Positions 11,201 to 53,500 of a stretch of 64,000 nucleotides of DNA are shown in pieces. Source of the stretch: Antedon mediterranea (Eukaryota > Animalia > Echinodermata). The stretch spans positions 23,050,795 to 23,114,794 of the forward strand of contig NC_092670.1 of NCBI RefSeq assembly GCF_964355755.1. The letters are read 5' to 3'. The number at the start of each line of letters is the position of its first letter. The first letter of the stretch is position 1. A model generated the notes under the pieces. That model saw only the letters and a list, made by a program, of their open reading frames with translations, was not told where the DNA came from and did no database searches. The position numbers were made by a program, and so were the translations under genes.

Positions 11201-14200
11201 TCGTCACTACGGACGAGTTAGGTTATCCGCATCGCAAAAGCCACGCGCACGCCACACGTCAGAATATTGCCTGCAGAAAAACGATTATGCCATTGAAAAA
11301 AAAATTAGTGCGCTCTCTATTTTGCGTCACGTATAAGTATATACGGTATACGCTATATACTGTATAGGTACTACATACAGTGCAGAATAGGTGAAAATAA
11401 GTGACCAAAGTTACTGACGCTTTTGCACATGATGACGTCATAGAAATTTCAAAAAATGTGAATCATGCGAAAGATAATTGATTGACCTAGACAATATAAA
11501 AAAATGGAGGGAAATGGAATACGGATAAGTGGAGATGCGCTTTATTAAATGTGACGAGCTATGACGAAAGAGAAAAAAATCCTATATTTTATATTCGAGT
11601 GGCCATACGATGACGTCATAATGTTCGGTTAGCCATATTAATGCATGATTCGATAAATACAACTCATCTACTTCCAGAATATGTAATTTAAAAAAAGTTC
11701 ACCACGTAGTTTAGAATTTATTACTGTTTAAAAAAAGGCATAATTTTGACGAATTTCTTAACTTTTTTTTCAAAAATTCGCGCAAATTTTCAAATTCTAC
11801 GTGCTCGTATGACGTGATATTAAGTCGAAATTGTTTGAAAGCTGGTAAATTTTCTAAAAAAGACAGGAAAAACAAAAATCAATCAAAAAAATGATGTTTT
11901 TGCGCTACGTGCGCACGTGCGCGTAAAAAAATTGCGCACGCGTGGGAATTTTTGAAATGCTCAAAATGACATGAAACGCGTAGAAAGTTGATTAGATATT
12001 AATTTTTCGCATTTTAAAATTTTAAATACGCGTGCGCGCGTAACTTTTTATGAAACATGCCATTTTTAATCCATAGAAACTTTGCGCATTATATGACTTA
12101 AATTTTCACAAAGTTTCAATACAAAACGACTTTTAGTTTTTATTCTATGATCAATCATTGAAATTCACAAAATCGCGCGTAACTTACGCTGCGCGACTCG
12201 AAATTTGAAAAAAAAAGTTTCTTGCACATCTACAGCTACAGGGCAATCTTTTGACAAAGTTATACAATCATATGTTGGCCAGAATTAGAGATAGGCTGCG
12301 CACAAAAAATGGGGGAGAAGGATGTAAGGAAAGAAATAAATACTAGATTTGAACTCGTCACTACGGACGAGTTAGGTTATCCGCAGCGCAAAAGCCACGT
12401 GCACGTCGTACGTTAGAATATTGCGCGCAGATAAACGATGATGCCATTGAAACAATTTCAGTTTTCTCTCTATTTTGCGTCACGTCTAAGTATATACGGT
12501 ATACACTATAATTATACTCTATACGTACTACATACAGTGCAGAATAGGTGAAAATAAGTGACCAAAGTTATTGACGCTTTTGGACATGATGACGTCATCA
12601 CAATTTTTAAACTAATGAATCATGCGAAAGATAATTGATTGACTTAGACAATATAAAGAAATGGAGGGCAATGGAATACGGATAAGTGGAGATGCGCTCT
12701 ATTAAATGTTATGAGCTATACGAAAGAGAAAAAAATCCTATATTTTATATTTGAGTGGCCTTACGATGACGTCACAATGTCCAGTTAGTTATATTGATGC
12801 ATGATTCGATATCTACAACTCATCTACTTCCACAATATGTAATTTAAAAAAAGTTCACCACGTAGTTTAGAATCTATGACTTTTTAAAAAAAGGCATAAT
12901 TTTCACGATTTTTTTAACTTTTTCATCAAAAACGCGCGCAAATTGTTCAATTCTACGTGCTCGTATGACGTGATTTTAAGTCAAAATCCATTGAAAATTG
13001 TTAAATTTACTAGAAAAGGCTGAAAAAACAAAAATCAAGCAAAAAAAATATGTTTTTGCGCTACGTGCGCACGCGCGCGTAAAAAAATGCGCGCTGGTGG
13101 GAATTTTTGAAATGCTCAAAATGACCTGAAACGCGTAGAAAATTGATTAGAAATTGATTTTTCGCAATTTGAAATTTTACACGCGCGTGCGCGCGTAACT
13201 TTTTTTGCAAACTGCCATTTTTAATCTACAGAAAGTTTTCGCTTTATATGACTTAAATTTTCACCAAGTTTCAATACAAAATGACTTTTGGTTTTTAATC
13301 TATGATCAATAATTGAAATTCATAAAATCGCGCGTAACTTACGCTGCGCGACTCGAAATTTGAAAAAAAAAGTTTCTTGCACATCTACAGATATAGGGCA
13401 ATCTTTTGACAAAGTTATACAATCTTCTGTTGGCTAGAATTAGAGATACGCTGCCCACAAAAAATGGGAGAGAAGTGTGGAAAGAAAGAAATAAATACTA
13501 GATTTGAACTCGTCACTACGGACGAGTTAGGTTATCCGCAGAGCAAAAGCCACGTGCACGTCATACGTTAGAATATTGCGCAGAGAAAAACATTATGCCA
13601 TTGAAAAAATGTTAGTGCGCTCTCTATTTTACGTAACGTCTAATTATACACGGTATACACTATATATTGTATACGTACTACATACAGTGAAGAATATGTG
13701 AAAATAAGTGGCCCAAGTTATTGACGCTTTTGGACATGATGACGTCATCACAATTTTAAAAACTGTATATCATGCGAAAGATAATTGATTGGCATAGACA
13801 ATATAAAAAAATGGGGGGAAATGGAATTTGGATAAGTGGAGATGCGCTCTATTAAATGTGATGAGCTATGACGAAAGAGACAAAAATCCTATATTTTATA
13901 TTTGAGTGGCCATACGATGACGTCACTATGTCCTGTTAGCCATATCGATGCATGATTCGATATCTACAACTCATCAACTTACAGAATGTGTAATTTAAAA
14001 AAAGTTCACCTCGTAGTTTACAATCTATGACTGTTTTAAAAAAGGCATAATTTTGACAAATTTTTGAACTTTTTCTTCAAAAACGCGCGCAAATTGTTCA
14101 ATTCTACGTGCTCGTATGACGTGATTTTAAGTCGAAATTGATTGAAAATTGGTAAATTTACTAGAAAAGGCTGAAAAAACAAAAATCAAGCAAAAAAAAG

Positions 14201-14315
14201 ATGCTTCTGCGCTACGTGCGCACGCGCGCGTGAAAAAAATGCGCACGCTTGGGAATTTTTGAAATGCTTAAAATGCCCTGAAACGCGTAGAAAGTTGATT
14301 AGAAATGGATATTTT
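4735..14315 (-). repeat. Array 1 of head-to-tail ~1.15-1.2 kb non-autonomous Helentron (HINE/DINE-1-like) units
   Basis: Marker ctagatttgaactcgtcac at 5936, 7091, 8323, 9961, 11189, 12343 and 13498 (degenerate at ~4735). Units end (plus strand) either in polyA-gatcctgacaataacaaggggttatccgccaagtgcggataaccaa (type A) or in gggagagaagtgtgtaaagaaagaaataaata (type B). The unit at 8323 is a longer variant (type C). The last unit is truncated at ~14315. Confidence 0.9.
13498..13539 (-). terminator. Helentron 3' terminus: subterminal IR + stem-loop + CTAG (representative copy)
   Basis: Minus strand reads GCGGATAACC-T-AACTCGTC-cgtagt-GACGAGTT-CAAAT-CTAG, followed by T. Repeated at each unit junction; the variants I saw fall in the loop or extend the stem. 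Confidence 0.8.
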
Positions 14316-14940: not shown

Positions 14941-14999
14941 TAAGATAGAGTAAAGTAGTTAGTTGGAAAGTCAATGTAAAGTCAAGGTGTTGGGAAAGG

Positions 15000-17900
15000 A
15001 TGTCGAAAGTACGGAAGATTTACATAGTCGAAAAATTCGAAAGGAGGGAATCTTCCAAGGGGCGGAGATCCTTCGGTGTTGGTTCAGTATTGGAATGTGG
15101 CGATACAGAAGTAAGGAATTGCTTTATAAATGAGACAGAAAGTGTAGTAGCAGAACGGTTATATAACTTAGAAGTGGGAACAAAGGTTATGATAACCGAA
15201 GTGAAACCGAGCCTTGATAATAATTCGTTGAAATTAACAGACAAATCTAAGGTATGCAATTAATGTATTTTTTATTAAATTATTATTATTATTATTGTTT
15301 ATTTAATAGGTCTATGTCTATGTTGATATAAAATAGAATCCGTGCGTCACTATTGTTCTTAAAAAACTAAAACGGTACTTATATATAATTATGATCCATG
15401 ATAACAATTATAATACAATGTCATTTAATTAGATTTAGAAACCAGTTGATAACAATTGAATAATAAATAATAAACAGACGTTATTAACAGAATAGGGAGA
15501 AGAAATTGTTTATTATAAATTAATTTACTCATTGATTGTTTATTTAAATTTTGTCATGAAATTTGCAATTTGTAGCCTAGGCTATTGTTTATAACATTAA
15601 AAAAACATTTAAATTGACAAAATTATGATTGAGTATAATTCTTCTGAGTGTTAGGTCTATGTCATATTGCCAGTATAGGTTAATTGTAAATTCTGCTTTG
15701 TAAATACAATTTTCTGTTCAAGTACAAATTGAAGTAAGAAATTACGAAACTGTGGTAGGTGTATATATATTTTATTTTAACCAAACTTTTTCTTTTGTGA
15801 TTTTAAGGTTTTGACAAACATTGCTGATTTTGATGTTAATATAGAAGTTGTTCGTAATTTTATCAGACCACCGACAGTGTCAATGTCAGCAGCTAGGGGA
15901 AGCCCGAAGAAAACGAGGCTATCTTTGAATGGGACAGTAATGAAGGTAACATTTTCTTTTGATTTAATCTGGGGTTAGGCTTATAGCACAGTTGTGAAAT
16001 TATGAGCTAGTTTCGTTTCGTACCTTACTTTTATTTCGACTCTAAATTTGTTAAGGAAAAGTAACAAATAAATCCTTTAAATTGAGTGATTTTCAGACGT
16101 GTTTTTTGCACATGATTTGTAAATTTCCCTAATTGACATTTCTATGGAGCGCCAAAAAAGCAACTATAATATAGGGCTAAAAAAATCAGTGGAATTCGTA
16201 TGTTTAATACATCTATTGATGAAAATTACGTTCAATTTCAAAACAATTTAGTCAATTTCAATACAACTAAAATGTTACTCTTTATTAACTTTGAAGAATA
16301 AAAATCGACAAATTCATAATAATAAGGTGTACTGAGGTTTATATACCTCAATGATTTACATAATATACTTTTTAGTCTTAGTCCCGGGCATAGACTAATT
16401 AGTTATGCTGATTTAGGGTCGGTTAATGTTTTTTGAAAACAGTACATTCTCAGAAGTAACATGTTACAACATTTTTATTGGGAAAAAAAATGGAAATCAA
16501 AACGTGTATTTCATAAATAGATGCATAAAAAGTAGACGCATTCCACTGAGTTTTAAACCTCTATTATAGTTTCTCTTTTGGTGCTCCATATAAACGAAAA
16601 TATTGAAGTTTGTGTATACAAAATTCGAAATTTACACGTTAGTAAAATCATTAAAACATTTTATTTGTTACTTTTTATGTGATTTTTCATACAAGTACTT
16701 TGAGCCTCAATTGTAAGGTGTGGTATTTATAATAAGTTACTTAACAAGTTTGAAGTTGAAATAAAAACAGGTGCTTAAAGGAACTAGCGACGTTATGAAC
16801 AGTTATAACTTTCGTACTTTGTTTAGACTTGAGGATGAATGAATTTATATTATCATATTAGGATGCTTTATTTAGATACTCATTAATCAGTTTTACTATG
16901 CAATATGATGGAATATGATAAATAAACATTTGTTGTTTATCATATTAAAGTAATGTATAGATATTCACCAGTAGTATAAATTACTTAAATTATAATTATA
17001 AACTATTAGACTATTAGTGTAGGTCTATTATAATTTGAAAATTGTTAATTTGGTAATATAATTTTAATAATCAATTACTAGATTAAAAGAAACCCAAAAA
17101 TATATAATATAGCACCAGTTTTAACATCACATGCCTTTGTTGTTTTTTTGGTTGGTTTAGGTTGGTGAACTTTACGAAACACAAAAGTATAAAAGAAGAT
17201 TGTTGACATTAGGCAGTAGCCCAGATAATTGTATCGACGTAGTTTTGTGGGGGGAGACCGCCTCAAATGTGTCAAGTGATATGAAAAATCAAGAACTAAC
17301 CCTATCAGCACTAGTAATGGAAGACAAAGAGTTGAGAAGTACTCCATCAACAGTGTTGGAGGTATGCATTTTTTTTTATTACTTTTTGGTAAATGAATAT
17401 GTAACAGTGGTTTTGTTTTTAGAATGAAAACAACATTGATATCATATTGAATAAATGTATAGAAAGTATTATAGTGCCAATATCTATCAATAGCTTGGGA
17501 AGTCATATTGAAACATTGGAATATTTTGTTAGAAATTATTTATAGGTTGTTTGAAAGTAATGTGTGATAGTGTTGTCTTAACTCAAAAAAGGAATAAAAA
17601 AACATAATATTTGTATATTGTTTTATATTTAGGTTATTTTTGTGAGAGATAAATATCAATTAGTTGTGTATATGTTGTAGATAAGGTTATTTTATATGTG
17701 TATTAAATCATAACCAATGTTCAATATATTTCATTTGATTTTTTTGTGCTGTAGGCTGGCGGAGTTAATTCAGTTGATGGTGTAATTGTGGCTGTAGGAG
17801 ACGAAAGTGATGGGTATGTACTTTTTTGTATTGTTTAAATTGTTTATATTATATTTGGTGATTGTGATATAATTGACTTTGAAAAAATAATTTTTCCAAA

Positions 17901-18344
17901 AAAAATTGTGTTCAATATGTCATTTTAATATGAAATAATAGTTTAATGAAATTGGTGAAAAAAGTTATTTACCTAAAAATACCATAATTTAAGGCAAAAA
18001 TAGTCAAAATGGTTGCTTTTGGTTAAGATGTGAAGATTTTGTTTCTTCTTTTTTTTATGAAAGTGATTACTTTCATTAAAGTCTAATGTTAATAATTTTT
18101 TTTTTCTAATAATTTTTCATGTATTTGGGGGACAATGCATCTTTAAAATATTACATTTTATATCTATTTTGATTATTATAATGATTGTTTTGATTGCAGG
18201 TATCCTGTTGACATGTACATGGAAAATGATTCTCTACTACAAATACCAGAAGATCTACATTTTGATTTCAACGTTAATTTGCCATGTCGTGTGAATTATT
18301 CTGCTAATAGTTTTGGGTGTATTACCGATATTCAATTTTTGTAA
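15000..18344 (+). CDS. Spliced 5-exon gene, 264 aa, OB-fold / RPA70-like putative ssDNA-binding protein
   Basis: Exons 15000-15251, 15808-15945, 17161-17361, 17755-17813 and 18200-18344. All introns are GT-AG (phases 0,0,0,2) and join into one stop-free frame: MSKVRKIYIVEKFERRE...LKLTDKSK/VLTNIADF...RLSLNGTVMK/VGELYETQKYKRRLLTLG...IDVVLWGETA...LRSTPSTVLE/AGGVNSVDGVIVAVGDESDG/YPVDMY...ITDIQFL*. The pattern GxVxxVG...KRxLxL...VVLWGE...STxxTxxE resembles RPA1 OB folds (by eye). Confidence 0.75.
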
Positions 18345-18565
18345 GGTAACAGTTGTTTGCAAGTTTGTTTTAATGTGTTTTTATTTTATATATTTGTTGA
18401 AAAGTAAATTTAATGAGTTTGTACTTAAAATCATTAAATTTACTTTTATTATTTATTAATATACTGAATTAACATTGATTATTTAATAGACATATATGAT
18501 AATCTTATCTACAAAATATACAATGCTAATTAATATTTTTTTAAAGTAATAAAAGAAATACATAC

Positions 18566-19005
18566 CTCCAACACTATTGAAGGGTAGTTCTTAACTCCTT
18601 TTCTTCCATTATAAGTGCTGATATTGTTAATTTGATTTGTCATAGCACCCGACAGACCCAAGGTTGCTTCCCCCCCCCTCCACCATATAACTACGTCGAT
18701 ACAATTAAGTAGGGTAATGCCTAATGTCAACACTTTTTTTATATTTTGGTGTTTCATAAGGTATATATTAATTGCGTACCTTAGATTTGTTTGTCAACCT
18801 CAACGAATTATTATCAAGAGTTGGTTTAAATTTGGTTATCATAACTTTCCTTCCCACTTCTAACATGAATAATTGTTTTGCTACTACACCTTCTGTCTCA
18901 TTTATATAGCAATTTTTTTACTTTGGTATTATTACTTTAAGTTATTGAACCAACACTGAATATCTCCACTTCTTGAAGATTCCCTCTGTTCAAATTTTTC
19001 AATTA
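18566..19005 (-). pseudogene. Inverted, internally deleted copy of the OB-fold gene (exon 1 joined through ~20 nt of intron to exon 3)
   Basis: The reverse complement matches exon 1 (gaaaaatttgaacagagggaatcttc...aaatctaag|gt) then exon 3 (ttgacattaggca...tgtatcgacgtagtt...gtgttggag|gtatgt), with frameshifts. Confidence 0.8.
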
Positions 19006-19149
19006 TAATTTTATCAATTTAAATGTTTAAAAAACAATATATTATAAACCAACTAACCTACAAAGTTTAATAAACACTGGATATTAAAAACTTGAAATCT
19101 GAAATGTCTTTTCAATTTTTAAGTAATCAATTTCAGTAAATTTTTTTTT

Positions 19150-21260
19150 TTAAATGCTGTATTTTGTTTCTAAATGAGGTAAATGATTAATGTAAATTTA
19201 ATAATTTTGTATTTATAATCAGTGTAATTTGCTGCTAATTTAGATAACTGTAAATTTTTTATTATAATCTTTGTATTTTGTTGTTAATTAAAATAATTTA
19301 AAATTAGTGTAAATGAGTTAAATGAATAATATAAATATATTATTTTTGTATTATATAAATTTATTAAATTATAAATGAAAAAATTTAAATTTATATTAAT
19401 TATTTATATTCATTAACAATAAATTACACTAACTATAAATACAACATGTAGGCTTCATGAAATATTTATTAGCAGCAAATTACACTGATTATAAACATAA
19501 AAACATTAAATTAACATTAATGATTTAACTCATTTAGCAACAAGTCACTGATTTTGAGTAGAAAATCATTAAATTTACATTAATTATTTATTTAAACTAG
19601 TGCCAAACTCAACTGATTATAAATACAAAATAATATCAATATGTTAAAGGGTGGTCTTACCATAGAGATATTATGTATAGTGAACTATAATATCTCTATG
19701 GTCTTATCTGTTATCTCTTTAATTTTGTTTACATTTTATTTAGCCTTGAACATTACCAAAACAACCACACAATTTGGTAAAAAACAGAAATTATGCATTA
19801 TAACATCCCCTGAAATTACCTGTTTTTGTTTGACATCATGTTGCCCTTACATGGAAATCAAGATAAATTTAATAATTTTGTATTTATAATCAGTGTAATT
19901 TGCTGCTAATTTAGATAAACAATTTAAATTTTGTATTATAATCTTTGTACTTTGTTATTAATTAAGATAATTTAAAATCAGTGTAAATTGTTGGTAAATG
20001 AGTTAAATAATGATGTAAATATAATAATTTTGTATTTATACAAATTTATTAAATTATAAATACACTAATTATAATACAAAAAAGCAAAACTGATTATAAA
20101 TACAAAATAACATCAATTGAAGGGTGGTCTTTTCTGTTTAATTTAGTTTATATTTTATTTAGCCTTAAACATTACCAAAACAACCACACAATTTGGTAAA
20201 AAAAACCCAGAAATTATGCATTAAAAAATCCCTTAAATTAGCTGTTTTTGTTTGACATCATGCTGCCATTATGTGGAAATCCATGTAAATTTAATAGTTC
20301 TGTATTTATAATCAGTGTAATTTGCTGATAATTAAGATTAACAATGTAAATTTTGTATTATAATATTTGTAGTTTGTTGTTAAGATAATTAAAAATCATT
20401 GTAAATTTGGGTTAAATGAAAAATATAAATACAACAAATATTCAAAATAAACTGATTATAAATATAAAATAATATCAATATGTTGAAGGGTGGTCTTACC
20501 TGTTTAATTTAGTTTACATTTTATTTAATCTTAAATGTTATGCGAAAACCAACCGGATTTTTGGGTACATAAACAAATTGTTATGTATCCATCTCCATGA
20601 TATAAGCAGAAATAATTAATTTTGTTTGTTTGTTTTTTTACTAAATTCAATAAAAACTCCATACAAATTCTACAAGCTCAACTGTTGTAATTTGCTGCTA
20701 ATTAAGATAAATGATTAATGTAATTTTGATAATTTTGTATTTATAATCAGTGTAATTTGTTGCTAATAAATATTTATTGTAAATTTTGTATTTATAATTA
20801 GTGTAATTTATTGCTAATTAGTATAAATAAATAATGTAAATTTGAATATTTTTAATTATTAATCTAAATATATAATGATTTTGTATTTATAATCAATGTT
20901 TTTTTTTTTTGCTAATTACAGTAGATTAAATGTAAATTGAAATCATGTTGTTTAATCAGTGTAATTTGCTGCTAATTAAGATAAATAATGTAAATGTTGT
21001 ATTTAATCAGTGTAATTTTTTTTGGTAAATAGTTAAATGATTAAAGTATGATGTGAATTTGTTTATTTTTTGTACTTTGTTGTTAATTAAGATAATTGAA
21101 ATCAGTGGTAAATGAGTTAAATGAATAATATAAATGTAAATATAATAATGTTGTATTTATAATCATTGTAATTTGTTGCTAATTAAGATAAATAATTATT
21201 TTAATCATGTTTGCACAAGATAACTATTAAATGTCATTATGATATGATTTAATTGTTTTA
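19150..21260. repeat. AT-rich degenerate minisatellite (tttgtatttataatcagtgtaatttgctgctaattaagataaa), in both orientations
   Basis: Dozens of degenerate copies; inverted copies at ~19420-19640 and 20060-20110. The same motif recurs at 22560-22890. Confidence 0.8.
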
Positions 21261-23252
21261 GTCATTTTTTTTATTTTATTTCATTTTATGTAAGCCGCTA
21301 GTCTTTACACAGTTATGGGGAAAATGGTAAAATCAGCATTGTGGTCATATGATGTTACAAGAGTTTTGCAAAATCAGCACATCGTGGGGCGCGTCAAACT
21401 GTTCGTTAATAGGCTTGTTTTATGGTAAAACCTTTTAACTACCCGATAAGCTAACAATTTCAAGTTTTGCTAAATAGTGTAAAACCAGGTGGGTATAATA
21501 AACTAATAGCTAAAGGGTCAGTATCAATCTTACCAACGTCGAGAAAAGCCGACAATGGAAAATGTCGTCTAGTCACCAATGTCGAGAAAGACCTTTCATT
21601 TGGTAGAAACATTAGTTACTGTAAATGGAAAAAAGTTTTAACATGCACTTTGGTGAATGAGATATAAAAGTGTTTTTATTTTGAATAGTTGTGTTCTCTA
21701 TACTGCTTATAACATAAATATGTAATATTTAGATTGAAAACAAAAAAAATATATATTGAAAAAAAAAAGAAAATTGAAAAAAAAGAAAAATTGTTTTGGG
21801 GCATTTTTTTTTTATATAACCATGAATCTAAAAAAAAAAATTAAAATGTAGCTTATTTAATAAGAATCATTTTTTCATATACTAACAGAAAGTGGTTTAA
21901 ATTGTCAACAAAGGGAACTGTTTTTAAAAACGAGAAAAAATAATTAAAATAAAAAAGAATGCGTTTTAATGTGAATTGTGCTTAAAAAGAATCCGGTATG
22001 ATAAGGCCGTGCTATTTATGTTATATTTTATGCCTAATAATTATCTAAATAGATTCGCGTATACACTCATCATGTTTGATTATTTTTATGTAACGATTGT
22101 TTTTTTTTATTCAAGTCATATTGTGTCAAATTTTACTTTTACAAAAGTGCCCAAACTGTTGGAAAGTTGTGCATCCGTATGCGTCATATTTTAAAAATGA
22201 GAATGACAGTCTTCAACTTTCGATAAACAATAAATTATATTGTTATAGCGACACTTATATTAGCAACGTACAGACTTTTCTCTGAGCGGCGTGGCAAAAA
22301 AATGTTTGACATTCCATTCTCTATGAAATCAACACGTGTACTTCTCTTCCCAATAAACTGAACAGCGATAAAGTTCATTGACTGGCGGTGAATAAAAGGT
22401 AACTGATATGCCGATCAAATAACATGTGGGGTTGTTTTGGTATTGTTTAAGCATGGACGTATAATTTAGATATAGGTCCAAGGTTTAAGGCTAAATAAAA
22501 TGTAAATTAAATTAAACAGAAAACAGATAAGACCATCCTTTAACATATTTATATTATTTTGTATTCATAATCAGTTTAGTTTGGTGCTAGTTATAATAAA
22601 TAATTAATGTAAATTTAATGATTTTGTACTTATCATCAGTGTAATTTGTTGCTAAATGGGTTAAATGATTAATGTAAAGTTAATGTTTGTATATTTATAA
22701 TCAGTGTAATTTGCTACTAATAAATAATTAAATTTTGTATTATAATTAGTGTAATTTATTGGTAATGAAGATAAACAATGTAAATTTGAATAATTTTCGT
22801 ATTTATAATTATTGTAATTTATTGATAATTTAAATTAATTATTAATGTCAATTTAATGATTTTTTATTTATAATCTGTAATTTTTTGCAAATTACGAGAC
22901 CCCTTTTTTAATCTAATTTTTAATTTGAAGGCATGATCAAAATGTAATATAAAAATAGCAATTTAAATCTAGTATTTTGTGCTGCCACTTAGCATAGTTT
23001 TTTTTTTCACTGCTCGTCACCATATCGGGTAAATGTGATATACTTTACGTTGTGATTGGACATTTAGTTACTATTTTTGGTAATGACTGAACATGCGCAC
23101 TTTATTGTTATATTGATCATTTGATTGGTTAAAAAATGTCCATCAATGACGCTCATGCGCAAAAGTTGCGGTATAGTAGGTACGTAAACTAGTTAGTTAG
23201 TTGGATCAGAAAGTCAATGTGAAGCCAAGGTGTATGGATTGTCGAGAGAGGG

Positions 23253-25140: not shown

Positions 25141-25361
25141 GGTAACAGTTCTTTGCAAGTTTGTTTTAATGCGTTTTTATTTTATATATTTGTTGAAAAG
25201 TAAATTTAATGATTTTGTACTTAAAATCATTAAATTTACTTTTATTATTTATTAATATACTGAATTAACATTGATTATTTAATAGACATATATGATAATC
25301 TTATCTACAAAATATACAATGCTAATTAATATTTTTTTAAAGTAATAAAGGAAATACATAC

Positions 25362-25800
25362 CTCCAACACTGTTGAAGGGTAGTTCTTAACCCCTTTTCT
25401 TCCATTATAAGTGCTGATATTGTTAATTTGATTTGTCATAGCACCCGACACACCCAAGGCTGGTTCCCCCACCCCCACCATATAACTACGTCGATACAAT
25501 TAAGTAGGCTAATGCCTAATGTCAACACTTTTTTTATATTTTGGTGTTTTATAAGGTACACATTAATTGCATACCTTAGATTTGTTTGTCAACCTCAATG
25601 AATTATTATCAATAGTTGGTTTTAAGTTCGGTTATCATAACCTTACTTCCCACTTCTAACATGAATAATTGTTTTGCTACTACACCTTCTGTCTTATTTA
25701 TATAGCAATTTTTTACTTTGGTATTATTACTTTAAATTACTGAACCAACACTGAATATCTCTGCTGCTTGAAGATTCCCTCTGTTAAAATTTTTCAATTA
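25362..25800 (-). pseudogene. Second inverted exon1-exon3 deletion copy of the OB-fold gene
   Basis: Near-identical to 18566-19005, as part of the block duplication. Confidence 0.8.
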
Positions 25801-36830: not shown

Positions 36831-36889
36831 GAATTTTAATATATGCACAATTTCTTTTTAAACATTTTTTAAAAGTATCTTTGAAACAT

Positions 36890-43800: not shown

Positions 43801-46800
43801 CCACATGTTCATATGTTAGTATGGGTTGAAAATGCTCCTATTTTTGGTACAGATAAAGATAATGAAGTTATTAATTTTGTTGATAAATATATTTCTTGTG
43901 CTGTGCCATGTGAAACTGTAGATCGTGAACTGAATGAAATTGTTAAAAGTGTGCAAATTCACAGTAAAAGACATTCTAAATCATGTAAAAAAAAGGGAAC
44001 AAATTGCAGATTTAACTTTCCCAGACAACCTTCTGGAAATACATTTGTTATGAGACCTACAATTGTGGATAAAGACAATGATGATAATGATGACAATAAA
44101 CAAGCAACGGAGCTGTTAACCTCAGTAAAAGATGCTGTGACTAATGAAGAAACATATAAAAATGCAATAGAACTTTTCCAAAGTTTAGGTATTACACAGA
44201 GTGCATTTGAGAAAGCAAATAATTGTGTAGCTACTGAGGAAAAAATTGTTATAAAGAGAAACCCTCAAGATGTGTGGGTAAATCAATATAATCCTTCCTT
44301 ATTGAGAGCATGGAATGCAAATATGGATATTCAATATATTACAAATGTATATGCATGTATAATTTACGTTATAGGATATATGTCAAAATCTGAACGTGAA
44401 ATGGGTTTACTGTTAAATCATGCAGCATCAGAAGTAAAAGAAGGCAATGAAGATGCTAGGCAAAGTTTGCGAAAACTTGGTAATGTTTATATGAATAATC
44501 GAGAAGTGTCTGCACAAGAAAGTATTTATCGTGTTTGTAGTTTAAGATTAAAAGAATGTTCAAGGAAAGTTGAATTTATCCCAGTAGGACCTAATCCTGT
44601 CAGAATGAGTTTACCACTAAGTGTAATTAAAAACAAAGAAGATGATGATGTAAGTGCATGGTTGCCAAATAAGATCGACAAATATAAAGCTCGACCTAAT
44701 AGTTCTGAATTTAATAAAATGTGCCTTGCAAAATTTTGTTCGGAATATAGAATATTGAGTTCATCAGAAATGAAAGGAAACAAACAAAAAAAGAATGTAT
44801 TTCAGTTAAAAAAACAGTTGGGATTCATCCAAAAAAGAACACGAACTAGTAATGCTATAGTAAGATACCCTCGATTTCCAATGGATACAGCACCTGAGAA
44901 ATATTTTTTGAGTATACTTCAGTTATTTCTACCATTTCGAAAAGATGAACAGTTAAAACCTCCAAATTTTGAAACGTATGAACAATTTCATGAGAAAGGA
45001 TGTGTGAAATTATGTGGTTGTCAATTACAAACGGTAAAGTCAATAGTTCATGGAAACATGGAACAATATGAAAAAAGTGCTGAAGATGTTGAAGAAGCAC
45101 GGGAATGTTTATCAAAATTTGGACCACAGGAAGATGCATGGAGTTTATTATGTCCAGAAAGCGAAAAAGAAAGGTTAGACAACCCAAAGCCAAATGTAGA
45201 GGTTGATGATGAAGAAGATGAATTTTTCATTCCCGATTTTGGAATTCAAAAAAATCATACATCTAAAGTAGAGTCTAATTCATCTAATATTCCAAGACCA
45301 GAATTGAACAAAATGATTCGATCTTTAAATGAAAAACAACAACATATATTTTATAAGACAAGACAATGGTGTTTAGACAAAGCTAATGGTAAAAAACCTG
45401 AAGCATTTTACACTTTCATAACTGGTGGCGCTGGTACAGGAAAAAGTCATTTGGTAAACTGTATTTATAATGAAGCGACACGTATTCTTGGAAAAATTAT
45501 GGAAAATCCCGATGATTTGTCAATATTGAAATTAGCTCCTACAGGAATCGCAGCATATAATATTAAAGGCCAAACAATTCATAGCGCTTTGTCTATCCCG
45601 ATTAATATTTCACTTCCGTATCAACCACTTGGAGAAGAAAAAATAAGTGCACTTCGTAATAAATTGGGCCAGTTGCAAATTGTTATTATAGATGAAATAT
45701 CAATGGTAAATCAAAGGTTACTTTGGTATATCCACGGACGATTAAGGCAAATAAAACAAGTACGCAACGATAGTCCATTTGGTAACATTTCAGTAATTGC
45801 TGTTGGTGATTTTTATCAGTTACCCCCGGTTATGGGCAGTTCGTTATACAAAGACACATTGGAAAGCTCACTGTGGATAGATAACTTTAAGCAAGTACAG
45901 TTAGATCAAATCATGAGGCAAAAAGAAGATAAAGAATTTGCTTTATTGTTAAACAAATTGCGTACAAAAGAAAAACATGATTGTTTGTCTGATAACGATT
46001 TATTAGTTCTAAAATCACGTGAAACAGGTGAAGAATGTGAAGATGCTGTTCACATTTACCCACGCAACAAACAAGTTAATGAATGGAATAAAAAAATGTT
46101 GCACAGAACCTGTACAGACATTGTATGCATTGAAGCAGAAGATAGTGTAGTAAACGCCAAGAAACAGACCAAAAATTGTGACAAACCTCGGAATTCACGT
46201 CAAACTAGTTTACTAAATTATTTGTGGATTGCACTTAATGCCAGAGTGATGTTGATTAAAAATGTAGATGTTAAAAAAGGCTTAACGAATGGATGTATGG
46301 GACATGTTTATGAAATAGTCAAACCCAATAATAACGCCAAACCAGTATCTATTAAAGTAAAGTTTGATAATAATGACATTGGTATTCAGGCAATTGAAAT
46401 GTTTAAAGAATCTATGGGGGAAAAATACAGTCGAAAACAATTTCCTCTCAAATTAGCATATGCATGCACAGTTCATAAAGTGCAAGGAATGACAATGGAT
46501 AAAGCAGTGGTTTGCCTTAAAGATACTTTTACGCATGGACAAGCATATGTTGGCCTCAGTCGTGTTACTTCAATATCTGGACTTACTATTGAAAATTTTA
46601 AACCTAGTCTGATTTATTGTGATCCAAACATAAAGAAGTGCTTAAATAATATGGATTCATACGTACAATGTGATAAACAAGGTCATGATTCGGATTCTAG
46701 ATTTTCAATAATGTTACATAACATTCAAGGGCTTAAACAACATTTTGTTGATCTTCAGTGTAATGATTTGTTTATGAATTCTAATATACTATGTCTAACT

Positions 46801-47355
46801 GAAACATGGTTGAACAAGGATGATGATGTTTTTGACGTACGCATTGAGCCGTATAAATGTTATCACCAAGCAAGGTATGATTCGTATTCTAATACAAATG
46901 ATCTCAGTTCCAAAATAAAACATCAGGCTCATGGTGGCGTTGCAGTGTATGTCAAGAACACGTCTTCAAGCAGATTAAACATATGTAATAATGATATAGA
47001 AGCAGTTTCATTTTTAATAACAAGTCCGATTTCTATTGCCGTGTCAGTAATTTATCGACCCCCAAGTTATGATATTAATCAATTCTGTCAAAATTTGAGA
47101 AAACATTTGGAAGAGTTACATAAAATGAGTACAAAATGTATTGTAATGGGTGATTTTAATGAAAATCTTTTCAAACAATCTTCCAGAGTGAATAATTTAA
47201 TGGCAGAGAATGAGTACAAACAACATGTTACATGTTCTACAACTGAAAACAATACATTGATTGATCATGTCTATAGCAAAGGTCTTGATTCAGTACAGGC
47301 TGAAGTAATTCCAGTTTATTACAGCTATCATGAAGCCATTCAAATTAAATTTTAA
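37813..47355 (+). CDS. Helentron transposase (3180 aa): hydrophobic N-terminus, PHD finger, herpes-tegument-type (C76-like) protease, OTU protease, basic repeats, Zn-binding region, HUH Rep, PIF1 helicase, AP/EEP endonuclease
   Basis: Single intact ORF with an in-frame TGA at 37807. PHD C4HC3 at 38179-38325. QGNFNQG..F...GKQCVANS...FDPH at ~39435-39890. GDGNCFYRA...W...EI...HF at 40441-40820. EFQMRGSPHVHMLVW (~43780) and YVIGYMSK (~44365). GGAGTGKS at 45424, DEISMV, GDFYQLPPV, TVHKVQG. ETWL, YRPP, GDFN, IDH and SYH at 46710-47350. Confidence 0.96.
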   Translation: MDMEFIAVVSIFLLIIFTMIIYLCKNVNKEVTSKKQIFVNTTGNVNNGVMDKTAEFKIVVNDILDLLDECCSTENVTDERNDDTGNVNCEFMKDTTEFKGIIDDIINILSYGTEVTSEFDDTCDFCNIEVKVDDNCITCDCCSQYFHVKCVRDVFEDKLCNSRVIWICSMCGNSNFVDNMLGEIGIPCHFNRYTILEPDESVTSDFPELTKNKEKRCNNAKLKCQQTESEDLLGSDWMRVRSKKRTDNRKKRCKNRGNKKRRKRVINGISIEPGVKYIGKGVKDFYERRNNKMEWNMSTNTYREYNKENAKTNVLGNSQTIIDDSGRPMCDVLKNTKVTHGIQQQSGGGSKRLRNNKGRFVKTKKIDNKKEQGNVDLNLKNDCDTMERFDKNIKNMGNNDNSETKTDEDFKMKCTVENDNTATDDAKAQNNSKTNDRSRIIDSNGTDHKNQTCASCEFEENEVLIIDDGCKQAVTEKIRSHTKPKCDQHTIDVDIEVLTKNNFSEELIIDDVPKRKNTRKRQKTQSINELQVYNSNANITVAQGNFNQGNYRFGFASGKQCVANSLVAILYSTKRNGNEFYTKDLDTILTLGNELYRYIQKDSTMHEDLLMISELPKELDILDNTFVISPKESVFGIIDGNLEFMAEYGALSLNQALEQELHQHDAFFMNFNRSTFSIIKRVNGFLIFDPHARDRFGCVSEHGKSILLYSPSWQGVYDYCIRLARSMNCNLHETEFELTGVNIENKCMMLCSASVLDDNCEQSNLGNVDVDEPSTSYQYKCSTRLPDKNIDYKVKGKTHNKEGHVSSSNEWQSDSDIEIVNVQYGERPDKNFKFIPITEAQKKNMCKEVGIHCEHTDMNCGINRASQIGHPLQITNITGDGNCFYRAISYIISGTEDNHLLLRRAITNHLLETDDLFINTFSHEYRSVKEYVFKKRVMDNGTWASNTEISAMANFLNTDIYSFNDQLLTWQLFSAKKPGRIDDVTTDNGIYILYTMNVHFNVVESVNVSQNNVQETTGQVDMNVTSHNKLSNTEAIFLVKNSTTKKRKQTGNETCDTFEDIQPKHKQSKTVERPCSESRVKRKRSYRNSKEIKKNRQRIKRQSEEKKNSEEIDEIRIKYQSDSVYREEKKRKVKEAQQIRYGDDDYKFKKRKENRERQYKMYRCEPEYNVKVRNKARHNYKIDLDYRTTKKANNLINYKFNEKFTQNLKESKKNRYNNDTIFRHKSRQDNKQRNKEKYHNDPKFRQNLKQKLAAKYCNNSKFRENVTKTLAEKYRNNLKFRQKCKQKLAEKYRSNLKFRQNCKHKLAEKYRSNLKFRHNCKHKLAEKYRSNLIFRQNCKQKLAEKYRSNLKFRQNCKHKLAEKYRSNLKFRQNCKHKLAEKYRSNLIFRQNCKERLAKKYRSNLIFRQNCKERLAKKYWSNLKFRQNCKLKLAEKYRSNLKFRESVKQRCKQRFTEKYHGDKGFRKNVMKKNMKNREKRKTKNTNFEFVLENFRETVSRGPEYVCCVCFKMLFKDQVMKCTKAKYKNKACINEKYLHICNNECIKPCQFIESPRCRLWICFTCHRKLLNGKVPAEANSNNLQLHDIPPELRCLNNLEQHLIGLNIPFMKLMNLPKGGQHGIHGPVVCVPSNTIKTVKMLPRPQVDDQLISVKLKRKLSYKGYYKYKFVNTANVIQALRYLQDHNKCYFDIAINEEWHNYLSEDNIERETTNENENNEEEENEEEIEDRLCGATFDTSLQPVDRRQNLVDEYFNDIICCAPCENNSPIALLSNKSNEAKSFPVLFPTGQPTFHDTRDVKITLGRYFHNRLMHIDNRFAQNTEFIFYAQSLYELQQILSSISIALRKGSSKKDDFSKVTVSDLKNVTKIQEILKSDRGYKFLKQIRGTPPYWQATQKDIIAMVRQIGKPTFFLSFSSADFRWKEIMTTLLSQSGDQRNIEELEWADKCNLLKSNPVTVARMFDKRFHTYLKNVILSQAQPIGKVVDYFYRIEFQMRGSPHVHMLVWVENAPIFGTDKDNEVINFVDKYISCAVPCETVDRELNEIVKSVQIHSKRHSKSCKKKGTNCRFNFPRQPSGNTFVMRPTIVDKDNDDNDDNKQATELLTSVKDAVTNEETYKNAIELFQSLGITQSAFEKANNCVATEEKIVIKRNPQDVWVNQYNPSLLRAWNANMDIQYITNVYACIIYVIGYMSKSEREMGLLLNHAASEVKEGNEDARQSLRKLGNVYMNNREVSAQESIYRVCSLRLKECSRKVEFIPVGPNPVRMSLPLSVIKNKEDDDVSAWLPNKIDKYKARPNSSEFNKMCLAKFCSEYRILSSSEMKGNKQKKNVFQLKKQLGFIQKRTRTSNAIVRYPRFPMDTAPEKYFLSILQLFLPFRKDEQLKPPNFETYEQFHEKGCVKLCGCQLQTVKSIVHGNMEQYEKSAEDVEEARECLSKFGPQEDAWSLLCPESEKERLDNPKPNVEVDDEEDEFFIPDFGIQKNHTSKVESNSSNIPRPELNKMIRSLNEKQQHIFYKTRQWCLDKANGKKPEAFYTFITGGAGTGKSHLVNCIYNEATRILGKIMENPDDLSILKLAPTGIAAYNIKGQTIHSALSIPINISLPYQPLGEEKISALRNKLGQLQIVIIDEISMVNQRLLWYIHGRLRQIKQVRNDSPFGNISVIAVGDFYQLPPVMGSSLYKDTLESSLWIDNFKQVQLDQIMRQKEDKEFALLLNKLRTKEKHDCLSDNDLLVLKSRETGEECEDAVHIYPRNKQVNEWNKKMLHRTCTDIVCIEAEDSVVNAKKQTKNCDKPRNSRQTSLLNYLWIALNARVMLIKNVDVKKGLTNGCMGHVYEIVKPNNNAKPVSIKVKFDNNDIGIQAIEMFKESMGEKYSRKQFPLKLAYACTVHKVQGMTMDKAVVCLKDTFTHGQAYVGLSRVTSISGLTIENFKPSLIYCDPNIKKCLNNMDSYVQCDKQGHDSDSRFSIMLHNIQGLKQHFVDLQCNDLFMNSNILCLTETWLNKDDDVFDVRIEPYKCYHQARYDSYSNTNDLSSKIKHQAHGGVAVYVKNTSSSRLNICNNDIEAVSFLITSPISIAVSVIYRPPSYDINQFCQNLRKHLEELHKMSTKCIVMGDFNENLFKQSSRVNNLMAENEYKQHVTCSTTENNTLIDHVYSKGLDSVQAEVIPVYYSYHEAIQIKF
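41560..42155 (+). repeat. In-frame 54-bp (18-aa) coding tandem repeat, ~11 copies
   Basis: KLAEKYRSNLKFRQNCK(H/Q) repeated, with more degenerate Y..D/N..FR repeats on both sides. Confidence 0.92.
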
Positions 47356-48639: not shown

Positions 48640-49418
48640 AATAGTGTGTGCGAAAGACGCAATTATACAATTTTGAAATGATCAAAATGACCTCAAATGT
48701 ACGTGAAATTGATTAGAAAAGAATTTTGCGAATTTTGAAATTTCAAATACGCGTAATCGCGTATTGTTTTTGCGTAGCACGTCATTTTTATAATGTCAAA
48801 AGTTGGTCCATATTATGAAATACACTTTCATAAATTTTCATTGATAAAATACATTTTTTTTTTCAGAATTATGAGCAACCATAACATTTCATTAAATCGC
48901 GCGTAACTTGCACTGCGCAACTCTAACGCCATATAACGAAGTTTTTTGCACATATCTATAGCTACTGGTTAATCTTATGACAAAGTTATACAATCTTATG
49001 TTGACCAGAATTAGAGATACGCTGCGAACAATCTTTTTTCTTTTTTGTGTCTAAGTATATACACTATATTGTATACATACGGTACTACATACAGGGCAGA
49101 CTAGGTGAAAATAACGGAAACCGCCATTTATTTCAATTTTTGACATGATGACGTCATCATAATGAAACGCGTAGATAGTAATTTTGGAAAGGAATTATCT
49201 GAGCAACAACATATCAACGTGTTGAAGAAATTTGGATACGTAAAGTATGGATGCGCGCTCTTTAAATGTCATGAACTATGACGCAAAATATGAAAATACG
49301 ACCTTTATAATTCAACTGGCCATATCACGTCACACAACATGCGATGCGCATAATTTTTACATGAATTCGTATCTACAATTCAACAGCTTCCAGAAACTTT
49401 TTAATCACGAGTATCATG
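48640..49418 (-). repeat. Decayed, rearranged fragments of the terminal core unit
   Basis: Degenerate versions of core motifs (cgcgcgtaacttgcactgcgcaactc, gacaaagttatacaatc, gaattagagatacgctgcg, acatgatgacgtca). Similar remnants at 4340-4735 after copy 1. Confidence 0.7.
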
Positions 49419-50516
49419 GCAAACGCCACGTGCACGTCATACGTTAGAATATTGCTCACAGTATAATGATTATACCATTGAAAAAATGTTAGTGCGCCCT
49501 CTATTTTGTGTCACGTCTGAGTATAATACGGTATACACTACTGTATACGTACTACATACAGTGCAGAATAGGTGAAAAGAAGTGACCAAAGTTATTGACG
49601 CTTTTGAACATGATGACGTCATAACAATTTTAAAAATGGTAAATCATGCGAAAGATAATTGATTGAACTAGACAATATAAACCAATGGAGGGAAGTGGAA
49701 TATGGATAAGTGGAGATGCGCTCTATTAAATGTGACGAGCTATGACGAAAGAGACAAAAATCCTATATTTAATATTCGAGTGGCCATACGATGACGTCAC
49801 TATGTCATGTTAGCCATATCGATGCATGATTCGATATCTACAACTCATCAACTTCCAGAATGTGTAATTTAAAAGAACTTCACCTCGTAGTTTACAATCT
49901 ATGACTGTTTTAAAAAAGGCATAATTTTGACGAATTTTTCAACTTTTTCTTAAAAAATGCGCGCAAATTGTTCAATTCTACGTACTCGTATGACGTGATT
50001 TTAAGTCGAAATTGATTGAAAATTGGTAAATTTACTAGAAAAGGCTGAAAAAACAAAAATTAAGCAAAAAAAACATGTTTTTGCGCTACGTGCGCAAGCG
50101 CGCGTAAAAAAAATGCGCACGCGTGGGAATTTTTTAAATGCTCAAAATGCCCTGAAACGCATAGAAAGTTGATTAGAAATGGATATTTCGCAATTTGAAA
50201 TTTTAAACGCGCGTGCGCGCGTAACTTTATGTCAAACATGCCATTTTTAATCCATAGAAAGTTTGCCCTTGATATGACTTAAATTTTCACCAAGTGTCAT
50301 TACAAAATGACTGTTGCTTTTTAGTATATGTTAAATACGCGAAATTCATAAAATCGCGCATAGCTTACGTTGCGCGACCCTAAAGAAAAAAAACGAGCTG
50401 TCCTGCACTTCTACACATAGAGGTAAATCTTCTGACAAAGTTATACAATGTAATGTTGATCAGAATTTGAGATACACGTGACACAAAATTTTGGGAAAGA
50501 AAGAAGAATAACATAG

Positions 50517-50554
<38 letters not shown>

Positions 50555-53500
50555 TCCTGACAATAACAAGAGGTTATCCGCCAAGAGCGGATAACCAACT
50601 AGATTTGAACTCGTCACTACGGACGAGTTAGGTTATCCGCAGTGCAAAAGCCACGTGCACGTCATACGTTAGAATAGTGCGCGCAAAAAAATAAAACGAT
50701 TATGGCATTGAAAAATGTTAGTGCGCTCTCTATGTTGCGTCGCGTCTAAGTATATACGGTATAACACTATATACTGTATACGTACTACATACAGTGCAGA
50801 ATAGGTGAAAATAAGTGACCAAAGTTATTGACGCATTTGAACATGATGACGTCATCACAATTTTTAAAATGGTGGATCATGCGAAAGATAATTGATTGAT
50901 CTAGACAATATAAAAAAATTGAGTGAAATGGAATAAGGATAAGTAGAGATGCGCTCTATTAAAATGACGAGCTATGACGAAAGAGAAAAAAATCCTATAT
51001 TTTATATTCGGGTGGCCATACGATGACGTCACAATGTCTGGTTAGCCATATCAATGCATGATTCGAGAAAAACAACCCATCTACTTCCAGAATATGTAAT
51101 TTTAAAAAAGTTCACCACGTAGTTTAGAATTTATGACTGTTTAAAAAAAGGTCTAATTTTGACGATTTTTTGAAGTTTTTCATCAAAAACACGCGCAAAT
51201 TATCCGATTCTACGTGCTCGTGTGACGTGATTTTAAGTCGAAATTGATTGAAAATTCATAAATTTACTAGAAAAGGCTGAAAAAACAAAAATCAAGCAAA
51301 AAAAAGATGTTTTTGCGCTACGTGCGCACGCGCGCGTAAAAAAATGCGCACGCGTGGGAATTTTTGAAATGCTCAAAATGACCTAAAACGCATAGAAAGT
51401 TGATTAGAAATGGATTTTTCGCAATTTGAAATTTTAAACGCGCATGCGCGCGTAACTTTTTGTGCAACCTGCCATTTTTAATCCATAGAAAGTTTGCACC
51501 TAATATAACTTAAATTTTCACCAAGTTTCAATACAAAATGACTTTTGGTTTTTAATCTATGATCAATCATTGAAATTCATAAAATCGCGCGTAACTTACG
51601 CTGCGCGACTCAAAATTCATAAAAAAAAGTTTCATGCACATCTACAGCTACAGGGCAATCTTTTGACAAATTTATACAATCATATGTTGGCCAGAATTAG
51701 AGATACGCTGCCAACAAAAAATTGGAAAGAAGTGTGTAAAGAAAGAAAAAAATACTAGATTTGAACTCGTCACTGCGGACGAGTTAGGTTATCCGCAGTC
51801 CTAAAGCCACGTGCACGTCATACGTTGGAATATTGCGCGCAGAAAAACGATTATGCCATTGAAAAAATGTGAGTGCGCTCTCTATTTTGTGTCACGTCAA
51901 AGTATATACGGTATACACTATATACCGTATACGTACTACATACAGTTCAGAATAGGTGAAAATAAGTGACCAAAGTTTTTGACGCTTTTGCACATGATGA
52001 CGTCATAACAATTTTTAAAATGGTGAATCATGCGAAAGATAATTGATTGACATAGACAATATAAAGAAATGGAGGGCAATGGAATACGGATAAGTGGAGA
52101 TGCGCTCTATTAAATGTGATGAGCTATACGAAAGAGAAAAAAATCCTAAATTTTATATTCGAGTGGCCATAGGATGACGTCACAATGTCCTGATAGCCAT
52201 ATTGATACATGATTCGATATCTACAACTCATCTACTACCAGAATATGTAATTATAAAAAAGTTTACCACGTAATTTAGAATCTATGACTGTTTAAAAAAA
52301 GGCATAATTTCGACAAATTTTTGGACTTTTTCATCAAAATTGCGCGCAAATTGTTTAATTCTACGTGCTCGTATGACGAGATTTAAAGTCGAAATTGATT
52401 GAAAATTGGTAAATTTACTAGAAAATGCTGAAAAAACAAAAATCAAGAAAAAAAAAGATGTTTTTGCGCTAAGTGCGCACGCGCGCGTAAAAAAATTGCG
52501 CACGCTTGGGAATTTTTGAAATGCTAAAAATGACCTGAAACGCGTAGAAAGTTGATTAGAAATTGATTTTACGCATTTTGAAATTTTAAACTCGCGTGCA
52601 CGCGTAACTTTATGTGAAACATGCCATTTTTAATCCATAGAAAGTTTGCGCATGATGTGACTTAAATTTTCACCAAGTTTCAATACAAAATGACTTTTAG
52701 TTTTTATTCTATGATCAATCATTGAAATTCATAAAATCGCGCGTAACTTACGCTGCGCGACTCAAAATTCATAAAAAAAAGTTTCTTGCACATCTCCAGC
52801 TACAGGGCTATCTTTTGACAAAGTTATACAATCATATGTTGGCCAGAATTAGAGATACGCTGCGAACAAAAAATGGGGGACAAGTATGTAAGGAAAGAAA
52901 TAAATACTAGACTTGAACTCGTCACTTCGGACGAGTTAGGTTATCCGCAGCGCAAAGGCCACGTGCACGTCATACGTTAGAATATTGCGCGCAGAAAAAC
53001 GATTATGCCATTGAAAAAATGTTAGTGCGCTCTCTATTTTGTGTCACGTCAAAGTATATACGGTATACGCTATATTCTGTATACGTACTACATACAGTGC
53101 AGAATAGGTGAAAATAAGGGACCCAAGTTATTGACGCTTTTAGACATGATGACGTCATCACAATTTAAAAAATGGTAGATTATGCGAAAGATAATTGATT
53201 GGTCTAGACAATATAACAAAATGGGGGGAAATGGAATACGGATAAGTGGAGATGCGCTCTATTAAATGTGATGCGCTATGACGAAAGAGACAAAAACCCT
53301 ATATTTGATATTCGAGTGGCCATACGATGACGTCACAATGTCCGGTTAGCCATATCGATGCATGATTTGATTTCTACAACTCATCTACTTCCAGAATCTG
53401 AAATTTTAAAAAAGTTCACCACGGAGTTTAGAATCTATGACTGTTTTAAGAAAGGCATAATTTTGACAAATTTTTGAACTTTTTCATCAAAAACGCGTGC

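What the first reader, a model, noticed from the sequence alone, without database searches (positions are those of the whole stretch)
13498..50598. ~37-kb Helentron whose two ends share the core of the 1.2-kb mini-elements arrayed around it
Seen: the unit at the right end (49419-50598) has the 5' hairpin terminus but no hairpin-CTAG. The unit at the left end (13498-14315) has hairpin-CTAG but no 5' terminus. Both contain the same ~0.8-kb core as a direct repeat, and no intact terminus lies between them. Known: Helentrons have asymmetric subterminal IRs plus a 3' stem-loop and spawn HINE/DINE-1-like derivatives. Inference: this is one very large autonomous element. Recombination or template switching between its two cores would produce exactly the 1.2-kb unit (a solo-LTR-like product), giving a system of large parents embedded in arrays of their own mini-derivatives.
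Basis: partly seen in the sequence, partly recalled or inferred. Interest (0 to 1): 0.85.

Follow-up and report, generated by a model that had tools for sequence, protein, structure and literature searches.

The report
Helentron bracketed by its own mini-elements
An intact rolling-circle transposon gene in a feather-star-like genome sits between arrays of its own 1.2-kb mini-elements and likely borrows them as its ends, giving a 37-kb composite of a known transposon kind; the mini-elements most likely multiply on their own and are not cut-out products of the large element.

Summary
In detail: 13498-14314 has hairpin-CTAG only, 49419-50598 has the palindromic end only, they share 774 bp at 92%, and no terminus lies between. 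Inside are an intact 3,181-aa Helentron RepHel (OTU, DUF6570, endonuclease) and an intact five-exon RPA-like gene on the same strand. A second RepHel copy also runs into a mini-element with a broken terminator, so the right end is probably a real start, recruited by self-insertion.

The solo-LTR-like model is not supported. Eight of 14 whole units lack the palindrome and cannot arise that way. None of the 6 units that have it is best explained as a left-core/right-core hybrid.

The left end looks like a 5'-truncated three-unit mini-element. In contigs of one sample, the 15-30 kb interior has about a quarter to a sixth of RepHel's depth (a rough measure, no single-copy baseline), so most RepHel copies probably lack it.

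Verdict: a large, probably low-copy composite Helentron in self-nested arrays, a mechanism already proposed for Fusarium elements. A young family of several 37-kb copies is not excluded.

The parts
37810..47355 (+). RepHel open reading frame, 3,181 aa stop to stop, no internal stop: Herpes_teg_N, OTU, DUF6570, Rep (RGSPHVH, YVIGYMSK), PIF1 helicase, C-terminal AP endonuclease
   Evidence: nearest relatives Antedon mediterranea models at 84-98%
15000..18344 (+). Five-exon RPA-like OB-fold gene (15000-15251, 15808-15945, 17161-17361, 17755-17813, 18200-18344), 264 aa, intact, GT-AG introns
   Evidence: 245 of 264 identical to P0123, XP_071947654; REPA_OB_2 E 0.0055 on one exon, below Pfam cut-off; Atlas hits for the homologue are RPA/OB-fold proteins
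13498..14314 (-). Left unit L: intact 3' end (subTIR, stem-loop, CTAG) plus core positions 1-817/825; 5'-truncated palindrome-type unit, 95.8% to unit 54126
11189..13497 (-). Two units with 3' ends but no 5' palindrome, directly left of L; alternative left ends at 12343 and 11189
49417..50598 (-). Right unit R2: palindromic 5' end (TT + GGTTATCCGC inverted repeat), poly-T, core; its own 3' hairpin, CTAG and subTIR are missing
48671..49416 (-). Older diverged core pieces (about 67-75% to young units) between the shared RepHel flank and R2
18500..26711 (.). Broken copies of the RPA-like exons in both orientations, AT-rich short repeats and nested high-copy insertions
29844..30137 (-). Fossil remnant of the same mini-element family without terminus; contig depth rises to its right
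31120..36158 (+). 242/343-bp tandem array upstream of RepHel
1..2695 (+). 3' part of a second RepHel copy, 897 codons open, 97.5% nt to the first, dN/dS 0.32
4731..5935 (-). Unit R1 next to the second RepHel copy: palindromic 5' end intact, own 3' end degenerate (8 changes, CTAG lost, hairpin -2.7 against -6.9 kcal/mol)
9902..9960 (-). 59-bp orphan 5' end (palindrome + poly-T); with the tail at 4637-4730 it matches one normal 5' terminus split by the array 4731-9901
   Evidence: pairing inferred
50599..56565 (-). Array of five whole units right of R2 (two without, three with palindrome)
58820..63497 (-). Four-unit mini-element (one 5' end, four 3' ends); last CTAG is followed by T of unrelated flank
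8323..9901 (-). 1.58-kb variant (V) mini-element: variant hairpin, old core half, then a terminator-less core and palindrome; V-type 3' ends also at 56566 and 63498

Best explanation
This is an intact Helentron coding block (RepHel plus an RPA-like gene) that likely uses its own mini-elements as replaceable ends, forming a probably low-copy 37-kb composite, while the 1.2-kb units likely multiply on their own by rolling-circle copying. Shown: termini, genes, the damaged terminators next to both RepHel copies, mosaic units. Inferred: RepHel would nick at a palindromic TT end and copy leftwards until it meets a hairpin-CTAG. Mini-elements land at T-runs, often in or beside resident copies. A unit landing right of RepHel would cut the gene off from its start, so only copies whose nearest unit has lost its terminator stay mobile. 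From 50598 the first intact stop is 13498, with read-through to 12343 or 11189 possible. Unequal exchange between array units then shuffles their cores.
For: Both RepHel-adjacent units have a broken 3' end (R1 eight changes, R2 deleted), against 0-2 changes in the 15 other young 3' ends. Counting the three intact V-type ends and the terminator-less inner core of the V element, 2 of 2 against 1 of 19, Fisher p 0.014, copies not independent. All 18 CTAG ends are followed by T. The 4637-4730 tail plus the 9902-9960 stub match one 5' terminus split in its poly-T. The two RepHel copies align to about 4190/48627, then reach their palindromes through different core pieces, and the ORFs show dN/dS 0.32. 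The RPA-like gene lies upstream on the same strand, the layout reported for HLE2 (PMC11417382 passages), and a named relative holds the same C-terminal 136 aa on two different chromosomes. L plus its two neighbours repeats the one-5'-end, several-3'-ends pattern of 50599-54125 and 58820-63497. In run X7 the 8 listed interior contigs have depth 49-57 and 5 substitutions in about 5.5 kb, the 4 near-identical ORF contigs listed 233-330, core bins 30,000-84,000.
Against: No empty site, second full copy or circle was seen, so movement of 13498-50598 as one piece is untested. Contig depth is not a copy number (the tool says so), only the longest contigs were listed, X4 and X7 are one sample that may be the window's source, X4 shows a GC bias, and no single-copy baseline was laid. 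Many diverged contigs in X7 have depth 8-19, so depth 55 could mean several near-identical copies. The 59-bp stub may be a plain tandem duplication. In the named relative the two RPA-like accessions are not adjacent to any of 10 long RepHel accessions looked up (weak, accession order only).
Confidence: 0.55

Rival explanations
1. A young family of several near-identical 37-39-kb autonomous Helentrons has moved as whole units; it is a minority among RepHel copies but real.
For: Uniform X7 depth 49-57 over 15.3-29.9 kb with a few fixed differences from the window; many diverged contigs sit at depth 8-19, so 55 may be 3-6 copies. Both genes are intact. No terminator between the ends.
Against: The same depth fits one diploid locus. 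The interior is full of broken duplicates and nested insertions. No contig bridging 14314/14315 was among the rows shown (tables were cut).
Confidence: 0.2
2. The 37-kb span is a pile-up that never moved as one piece: a RepHel module of about 20 kb (30-50.6 kb), a separate RPA-carrying relic (14.3-29.9 kb) and a truncated mini-element lie side by side in a Helentron-rich region.
For: Depth steps up near 30 kb, at a fossil core remnant. An orphan 3' end with truncated core also occurs at 56566-56830 next to non-RepHel DNA. L is closer to array unit 54126 (95.8%) than to R2 (92.5%). 18 3' ends against 10 5' ends in the window.
Against: No terminator is detectable near 30 kb, so copying from 50598 would run on to 13498. 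The RPA-like gene is intact, upstream and on the same strand as RepHel.
Confidence: 0.17
3. One reading: the two cores are paired direct repeats of a standard 37-kb parent, and recombination or template switching between them makes the 1.2-kb units, like solo LTRs.
For: Geometry works: L(1-x) joined to R2(x-end) gives a complete unit. L and R2 are among each other's three nearest units in the six 75-column windows from 350 to 725 and in 800-850.
Against: The best L/R2 hybrids reach 86.4-93.6% and never rank first among 105 two-parent models; array-by-array hybrids reach 96.6-96.7%. 8 of 14 whole units have no 5' end. Core depth is about 100 times RepHel depth (rough). The second RepHel copy's right unit still shows a terminator remnant, so a whole unit needs no recombination.
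Confidence: 0.08

Closest known systems
Helentrons and HINE/DINE-1 partners (Thomas, Vadnagara, Pritham 2014, PMC4067079; passages and section 11 read)
   Same: RepHel with fused AP endonuclease and GSP motif, OTU, separate RPA gene, subTIR with 5' inverted repeat, 3' stem-loop, T-rich targets, far more non-autonomous than autonomous copies; minus-oriented ORF known from Helentron-Da-40.
   Different: The span is 37 kb; the mite RPA has no introns, this gene has four; the 3' end is CTAG; the mini-elements form multi-unit arrays and appear to serve as the ends instead of being simple deletion derivatives.
HLE2 group, 'HLE2-reverse' layout and HelenXT233 with two left termini in direct repeat (HELIANO, PMC11417382; passages and section 18 read)
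   Same: DUF6570, Herpes_teg_N, endonuclease; RPA upstream of RepHel; stem-loop upstream of the ORF; alternative termini shared with non-autonomous subfamilies.
   Different: That paper reports RPA limited to subgroup a and endonuclease/Herpes_teg_N enriched in subgroup b; here they occur together (the RPA-like gene scores below Pfam cut-off and would be missed). Subgroup membership was not tested by a tree.
Self-insertion and composite FoHeli elements of Fusarium oxysporum (Chellapan et al. 2016, PMC5148889; passages and section 16 read)
   Same: Self-insertion, multiple termini, and deletion or mutation of inner termini proposed to give composites with reversed ORF.
   Different: There the duplicated ends are under 200 bp and 5'; here whole 1.2-kb units and stacked 3' ends are involved, around a much larger animal element.
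proto-Helentron of Phytophthora infestans (PMC4067079 section 11)
   Same: 5' TT and 3' CTAG ends with a Helentron-type Rep; reverse layout according to PMC11417382.
   Different: proto-Helentron (about 14 kb) lacks the endonuclease and inserts between A and T; this element has the endonuclease and a palindromic subTIR.
Large maize Helitrons and end-bypass capture (review PMC6431247, passages)
   Same: Length up to 39 kb, growth by bypass of the terminator hairpin.
   Different: Those grow by capturing host gene fragments; here the cargo is the element's own intact machinery plus decayed copies of it.

Membership tests
Helentron (HLE2 with endonuclease) | Rep (HUH, two Tyr) fused to PIF1 helicase | tested here: met
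   Helitron_like_N E 2.9e-36, PIF1 E 1.4e-28; RGSPHVH, YVIGYMSK, helicase motifs
Helentron (HLE2 with endonuclease) | AP endonuclease at the C-terminus | tested here: met
   Exo_endo_phos 2971-3158, E 6.3e-09
Helentron (HLE2 with endonuclease) | S between G and P in Rep motif 2; DUF6570 marker | tested here: met
   RGSPHVH at 1995; DUF6570 E 4.4e-20; criteria
Helentron (HLE2 with endonuclease) | Asymmetric subTIRs, 5' inverted repeat and 3' stem-loop | tested here: met
   10-bp subTIR in a 5' hairpin (-11.5 kcal/mol, z -10.3) and before an 8-bp 3' stem-loop (z -2.7). Published subTIRs are 11-17 bp; that these ends belong to this RepHel is inferred
Helentron (HLE2 with endonuclease) | Insertion at TT without target duplication, shown by an empty site | tested here: inconclusive
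   All 18 3' ends are followed by T and one array sits in a poly-T; no true empty site is available, no genome is held
HINE / DINE-1-like non-autonomous partner | No coding capacity, termini shared with a Helentron, high copy number | tested here: met
   No ORF of 150 aa in the arrays; shared ends; core depth about 100 times RepHel (rough)
HINE / DINE-1-like non-autonomous partner | Simple deletion derivative of the autonomous element | tested here: inconclusive
   Geometrically possible, but no unit matches an L/R2 join best
proto-Helentron | No endonuclease domain | tested here: not met
   Endonuclease present
Solo-LTR-like product of paired terminal repeats | Free units are hybrids of the two terminal repeats | tested here: not met
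   0 of 6 complete units best fit by the L/R2 hybrid; 8 of 14 whole units lack the 5' end
Autonomous 37-kb element family | Several copies share both ends and the interior, with different flanks | not testable with these tools

The most novel reading that the evidence does not exclude
A young family of 37-39-kb autonomous animal Helentrons, carrying an intact 3,181-aa RepHel and an intact spliced RPA-like gene, that keeps rebuilding its ends from its own mini-elements: units that land beside the gene and lose their terminator become the new start, so parent and mini-elements form a cycle of recruitment. It would rival the largest Helitrons described while staying fully coding.
Probability: 0.2. 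Interest if true: 0.7.

Novelty: new member of a known kind. Interest (0 to 1): 0.42.

Why it matters
The locus is a natural case for a mechanism so far proposed from Fusarium elements: self-insertion followed by loss of inner termini. Both RepHel copies have lost the terminator of the nearest mini-element while 15 other young 3' ends are nearly invariant, which makes the model testable across the genome. It also shows why large Helentrons are missed: HELIANO's default search window is 10 kb, and the spliced RPA-like gene lies 20 kb upstream and below Pfam cut-off. If several 37-kb copies exist, the size that an animal rolling-circle transposon can move would need revising upwards.

Tried and rejected
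No whole genome is held, so copies could not be mapped. L/R2 hybrid origin of the units: tested and rejected. Hidden termini or strong hairpins in the interior: none found but one at 48746-48765 inside an old core piece. RPA-like exon searches: Pfam found 1 of 4 exons, weakly; exon 1 gave no hit among longer proteins and one 49% hit among representatives; PDB sequence search of one exon found nothing; the single-sequence fold of exon 1 was poor (pLDDT 56) and was not used; the whole homologue has no Pfam hit. Accession adjacency of RPA-like and RepHel models in Antedon mediterranea: none among 10 RepHel accessions, weak. Runs X1-X3 hold only 0.10-0.12 of the ORF words and short pieces; nothing is concluded from them. 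Junction rows at 14314/14315 and 49416/49419 could not be read from the cut tables. Literature searches found no description of crinoid Helentrons; the library lacks most subscription journals and Repbase, and no supplements were read. Earlier-findings look-ups by 7 words and by sequence found nothing.
Full report
Observation. A self-comparison of the window shows arrays of about 1.15-1.23-kb units at 4.7-14.3, 49.4-56.6 and 58.8-64 kb. There are 18 ends of the form subTIR, stem-loop, CTAG and 10 palindromic ends starting TTGGTTATCCGC, all on the minus strand. The subTIR occurs 39 times against 0.99 by chance, never between 13540 and 50571, and terminal profiles find nothing there. The left unit covers profile positions 1-825 and the right unit 44-1224; they share 774 bp at 92.1%.

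What lies inside. 37810-47355 is one open frame of 3,181 aa with Herpes_teg_N, OTU, DUF6570, Rep, PIF1 and endonuclease domains and intact catalytic motifs. The best of 467 relatives are Antedon mediterranea models at 84-98%, then sea urchins, molluscs and fish, so the host is probably a crinoid and the protein type is widespread. At 15000-18344 a five-exon gene gives 264 aa without stop, 245 of 264 identical to an annotated A. mediterranea protein of the same length. That homologue's nearest Atlas clusters are RPA and other OB-fold proteins; Pfam support is weak. Broken copies of its exons lie at 18.5-26.7 kb in both orientations. RPA, OTU, endonuclease and a minus-oriented ORF are all known in Helentrons (PMC4067079, passages), and RPA lies upstream of RepHel in HLE2 (PMC11417382, passages).

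The units are of several kinds. Of 14 whole units, 6 carry the palindromic 5' end and 8 do not; seven of the junctions behind a CTAG are unit tails without palindrome plus one more at 13498, nine are CTAG|TTGG, and one is unrelated flank. Read on the minus strand the arrays are strings of one 5' end followed by one to four 3' ends (50599-54125, 58820-63497, 5936-8322). The left end of the large span, L plus 12343 plus 11189, has the same form, minus the 5' 400 bp of L. L is 95.8% identical to unit 54126 and 92.5% to the right unit. So 13498 is the first stop, not a unique end. An orphan 3' end with a truncated core also stands at 56566-56830 beside non-coding DNA.

Test of the recombination model. 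For each of the 6 complete units I took the best single-crossover hybrid of L and the right unit and ranked it among 105 two-parent models. Identities were 93.6, 88.1, 89.4, 91.8, 90.5 and 86.4%, ranks 5, 65, 43, 34, 35 and 89. Hybrids between array units fit better (96.7 and 96.6% in two cases). In its favour, L and the right unit are near neighbours over much of columns 350-850. The units are mosaics from exchange within the arrays, not products of these two cores.

The right end. A second RepHel copy (1-2695; dN/dS 0.32 against the first) aligns with the first to about 4190/48627, then runs through different old core pieces to a palindromic end 3,240 bp after its stop, against 3,243 bp for the first. 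In both, the unit next to the gene has lost its 3' end: eight changes and no CTAG in one, deletion in the other, against 0-2 changes in the 15 other young ends. With the V-type ends and the V element's terminator-less inner core counted, this is 2 of 2 against 1 of 19 (p 0.014, copies not independent). The tail at 4637-4730 ends in a poly-A that fits the 59-bp stub at 9902-9960; together they match one normal 5' terminus, split by the array between them. This pairing is inferred; a tandem duplication of the stub is possible.

Copy number, rough. One run search on the ORF listed 7 runs, 4 of them one sample holding 0.65-0.66 of the words; this may be the window's own source. Only contigs were available, and the tool warns that their depth is no copy number. 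In run X7 the 8 listed interior contigs (of 1,765 laid) have depth 49-57 and 5 substitutions in about 5.5 kb; the 4 listed near-identical ORF contigs have 233-330, the one at 36.4-37.0 kb 173, and core bins 30,000-84,000. Run X4 gives 95-124 against 633-779 at similar GC but shows a GC bias. The ratio of about 4-6 suggests that most RepHel copies lack this interior. The absolute number is open: 55 may be one diploid locus, or several copies, since many diverged contigs lie at 8-19. No single-copy baseline was laid.

Mechanism. Shown: ends, genes, damaged terminators, mosaic units, T after every CTAG. From established work: copying starts at the 5' end, stops at the hairpin, can bypass it, and passes through circles (PMC6431247, PMC5148889, passages); tandem Helitron arrays are known. 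Inferred: mini-elements insert in T-runs of resident copies; a unit landing between RepHel and its start blocks the gene unless its terminator decays; survivors use that unit as their start; fossil cores at 14488, 22889 and 29844 mark earlier rounds. From 50598 the first stop is 13498, so 37 kb would be copied if this locus is active, which is untested.

Comparison and verdict. It is a Helentron by every protein criterion tested. Self-insertion with loss of inner termini was proposed for Fusarium elements (PMC5148889 section 16), and direct-repeat termini shared with non-autonomous subfamilies occur in Xenopus (PMC11417382 section 18). Unusual points are the size, the TT...CTAG ends otherwise described for the endonuclease-less proto-Helentron, and the spliced RPA-like gene. 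Five literature searches found no account of crinoid Helentrons. Earlier scan notes from other genomes describe similar self-nesting; they are leads only. New member of a known kind, interest 0.42; a young 37-kb family remains possible at about 0.2.

Noticed in passing
window 31374-36108: Each monomer of the 242/343-bp array carries an exon-like segment (AG, 32 nt, GTGAGT), 16 times; possibly repeated 5' exons of the RepHel transcript. No RNA evidence.
   Followed up: partly
window 41539-42137: Eleven 54-bp repeats inside the RepHel ORF encode an 18-aa Lys/Arg-rich unit (KLAEKYRSNLKFRQNCKQ type); a contig joint skipping 54 bp shows copy-number variation.
   Followed up: no
window 47356-48627 against 2696-4190: The 3' flanks of the two RepHel copies differ by about 6-21% in alignable blocks while synonymous sites in the ORF differ by 5%, hinting at exchange between subfamilies.
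   Followed up: partly
window about 16.0-17.1, 19.6, 22.0-22.3, 24.4-24.8, 28.0-28.8 kb: Short stretches with contig depth in the thousands inside the low-depth interior: probably nested high-copy insertions of other families.
   Followed up: no
window 56830-58819: About 2 kb unrelated to the units, ending in a 31/59-bp tandem repeat into which a four-unit element has inserted before a T.
   Followed up: no
P0008 (XP_071965644): The closest named RepHel model carries a tandem duplication of its Herpes_teg_N-OTU region.
   Followed up: no
window 36894-37256: Four 90-bp repeats just upstream of the RepHel ORF; their Pfam hits are below cut-off and probably artefacts of repetition.
   Followed up: no
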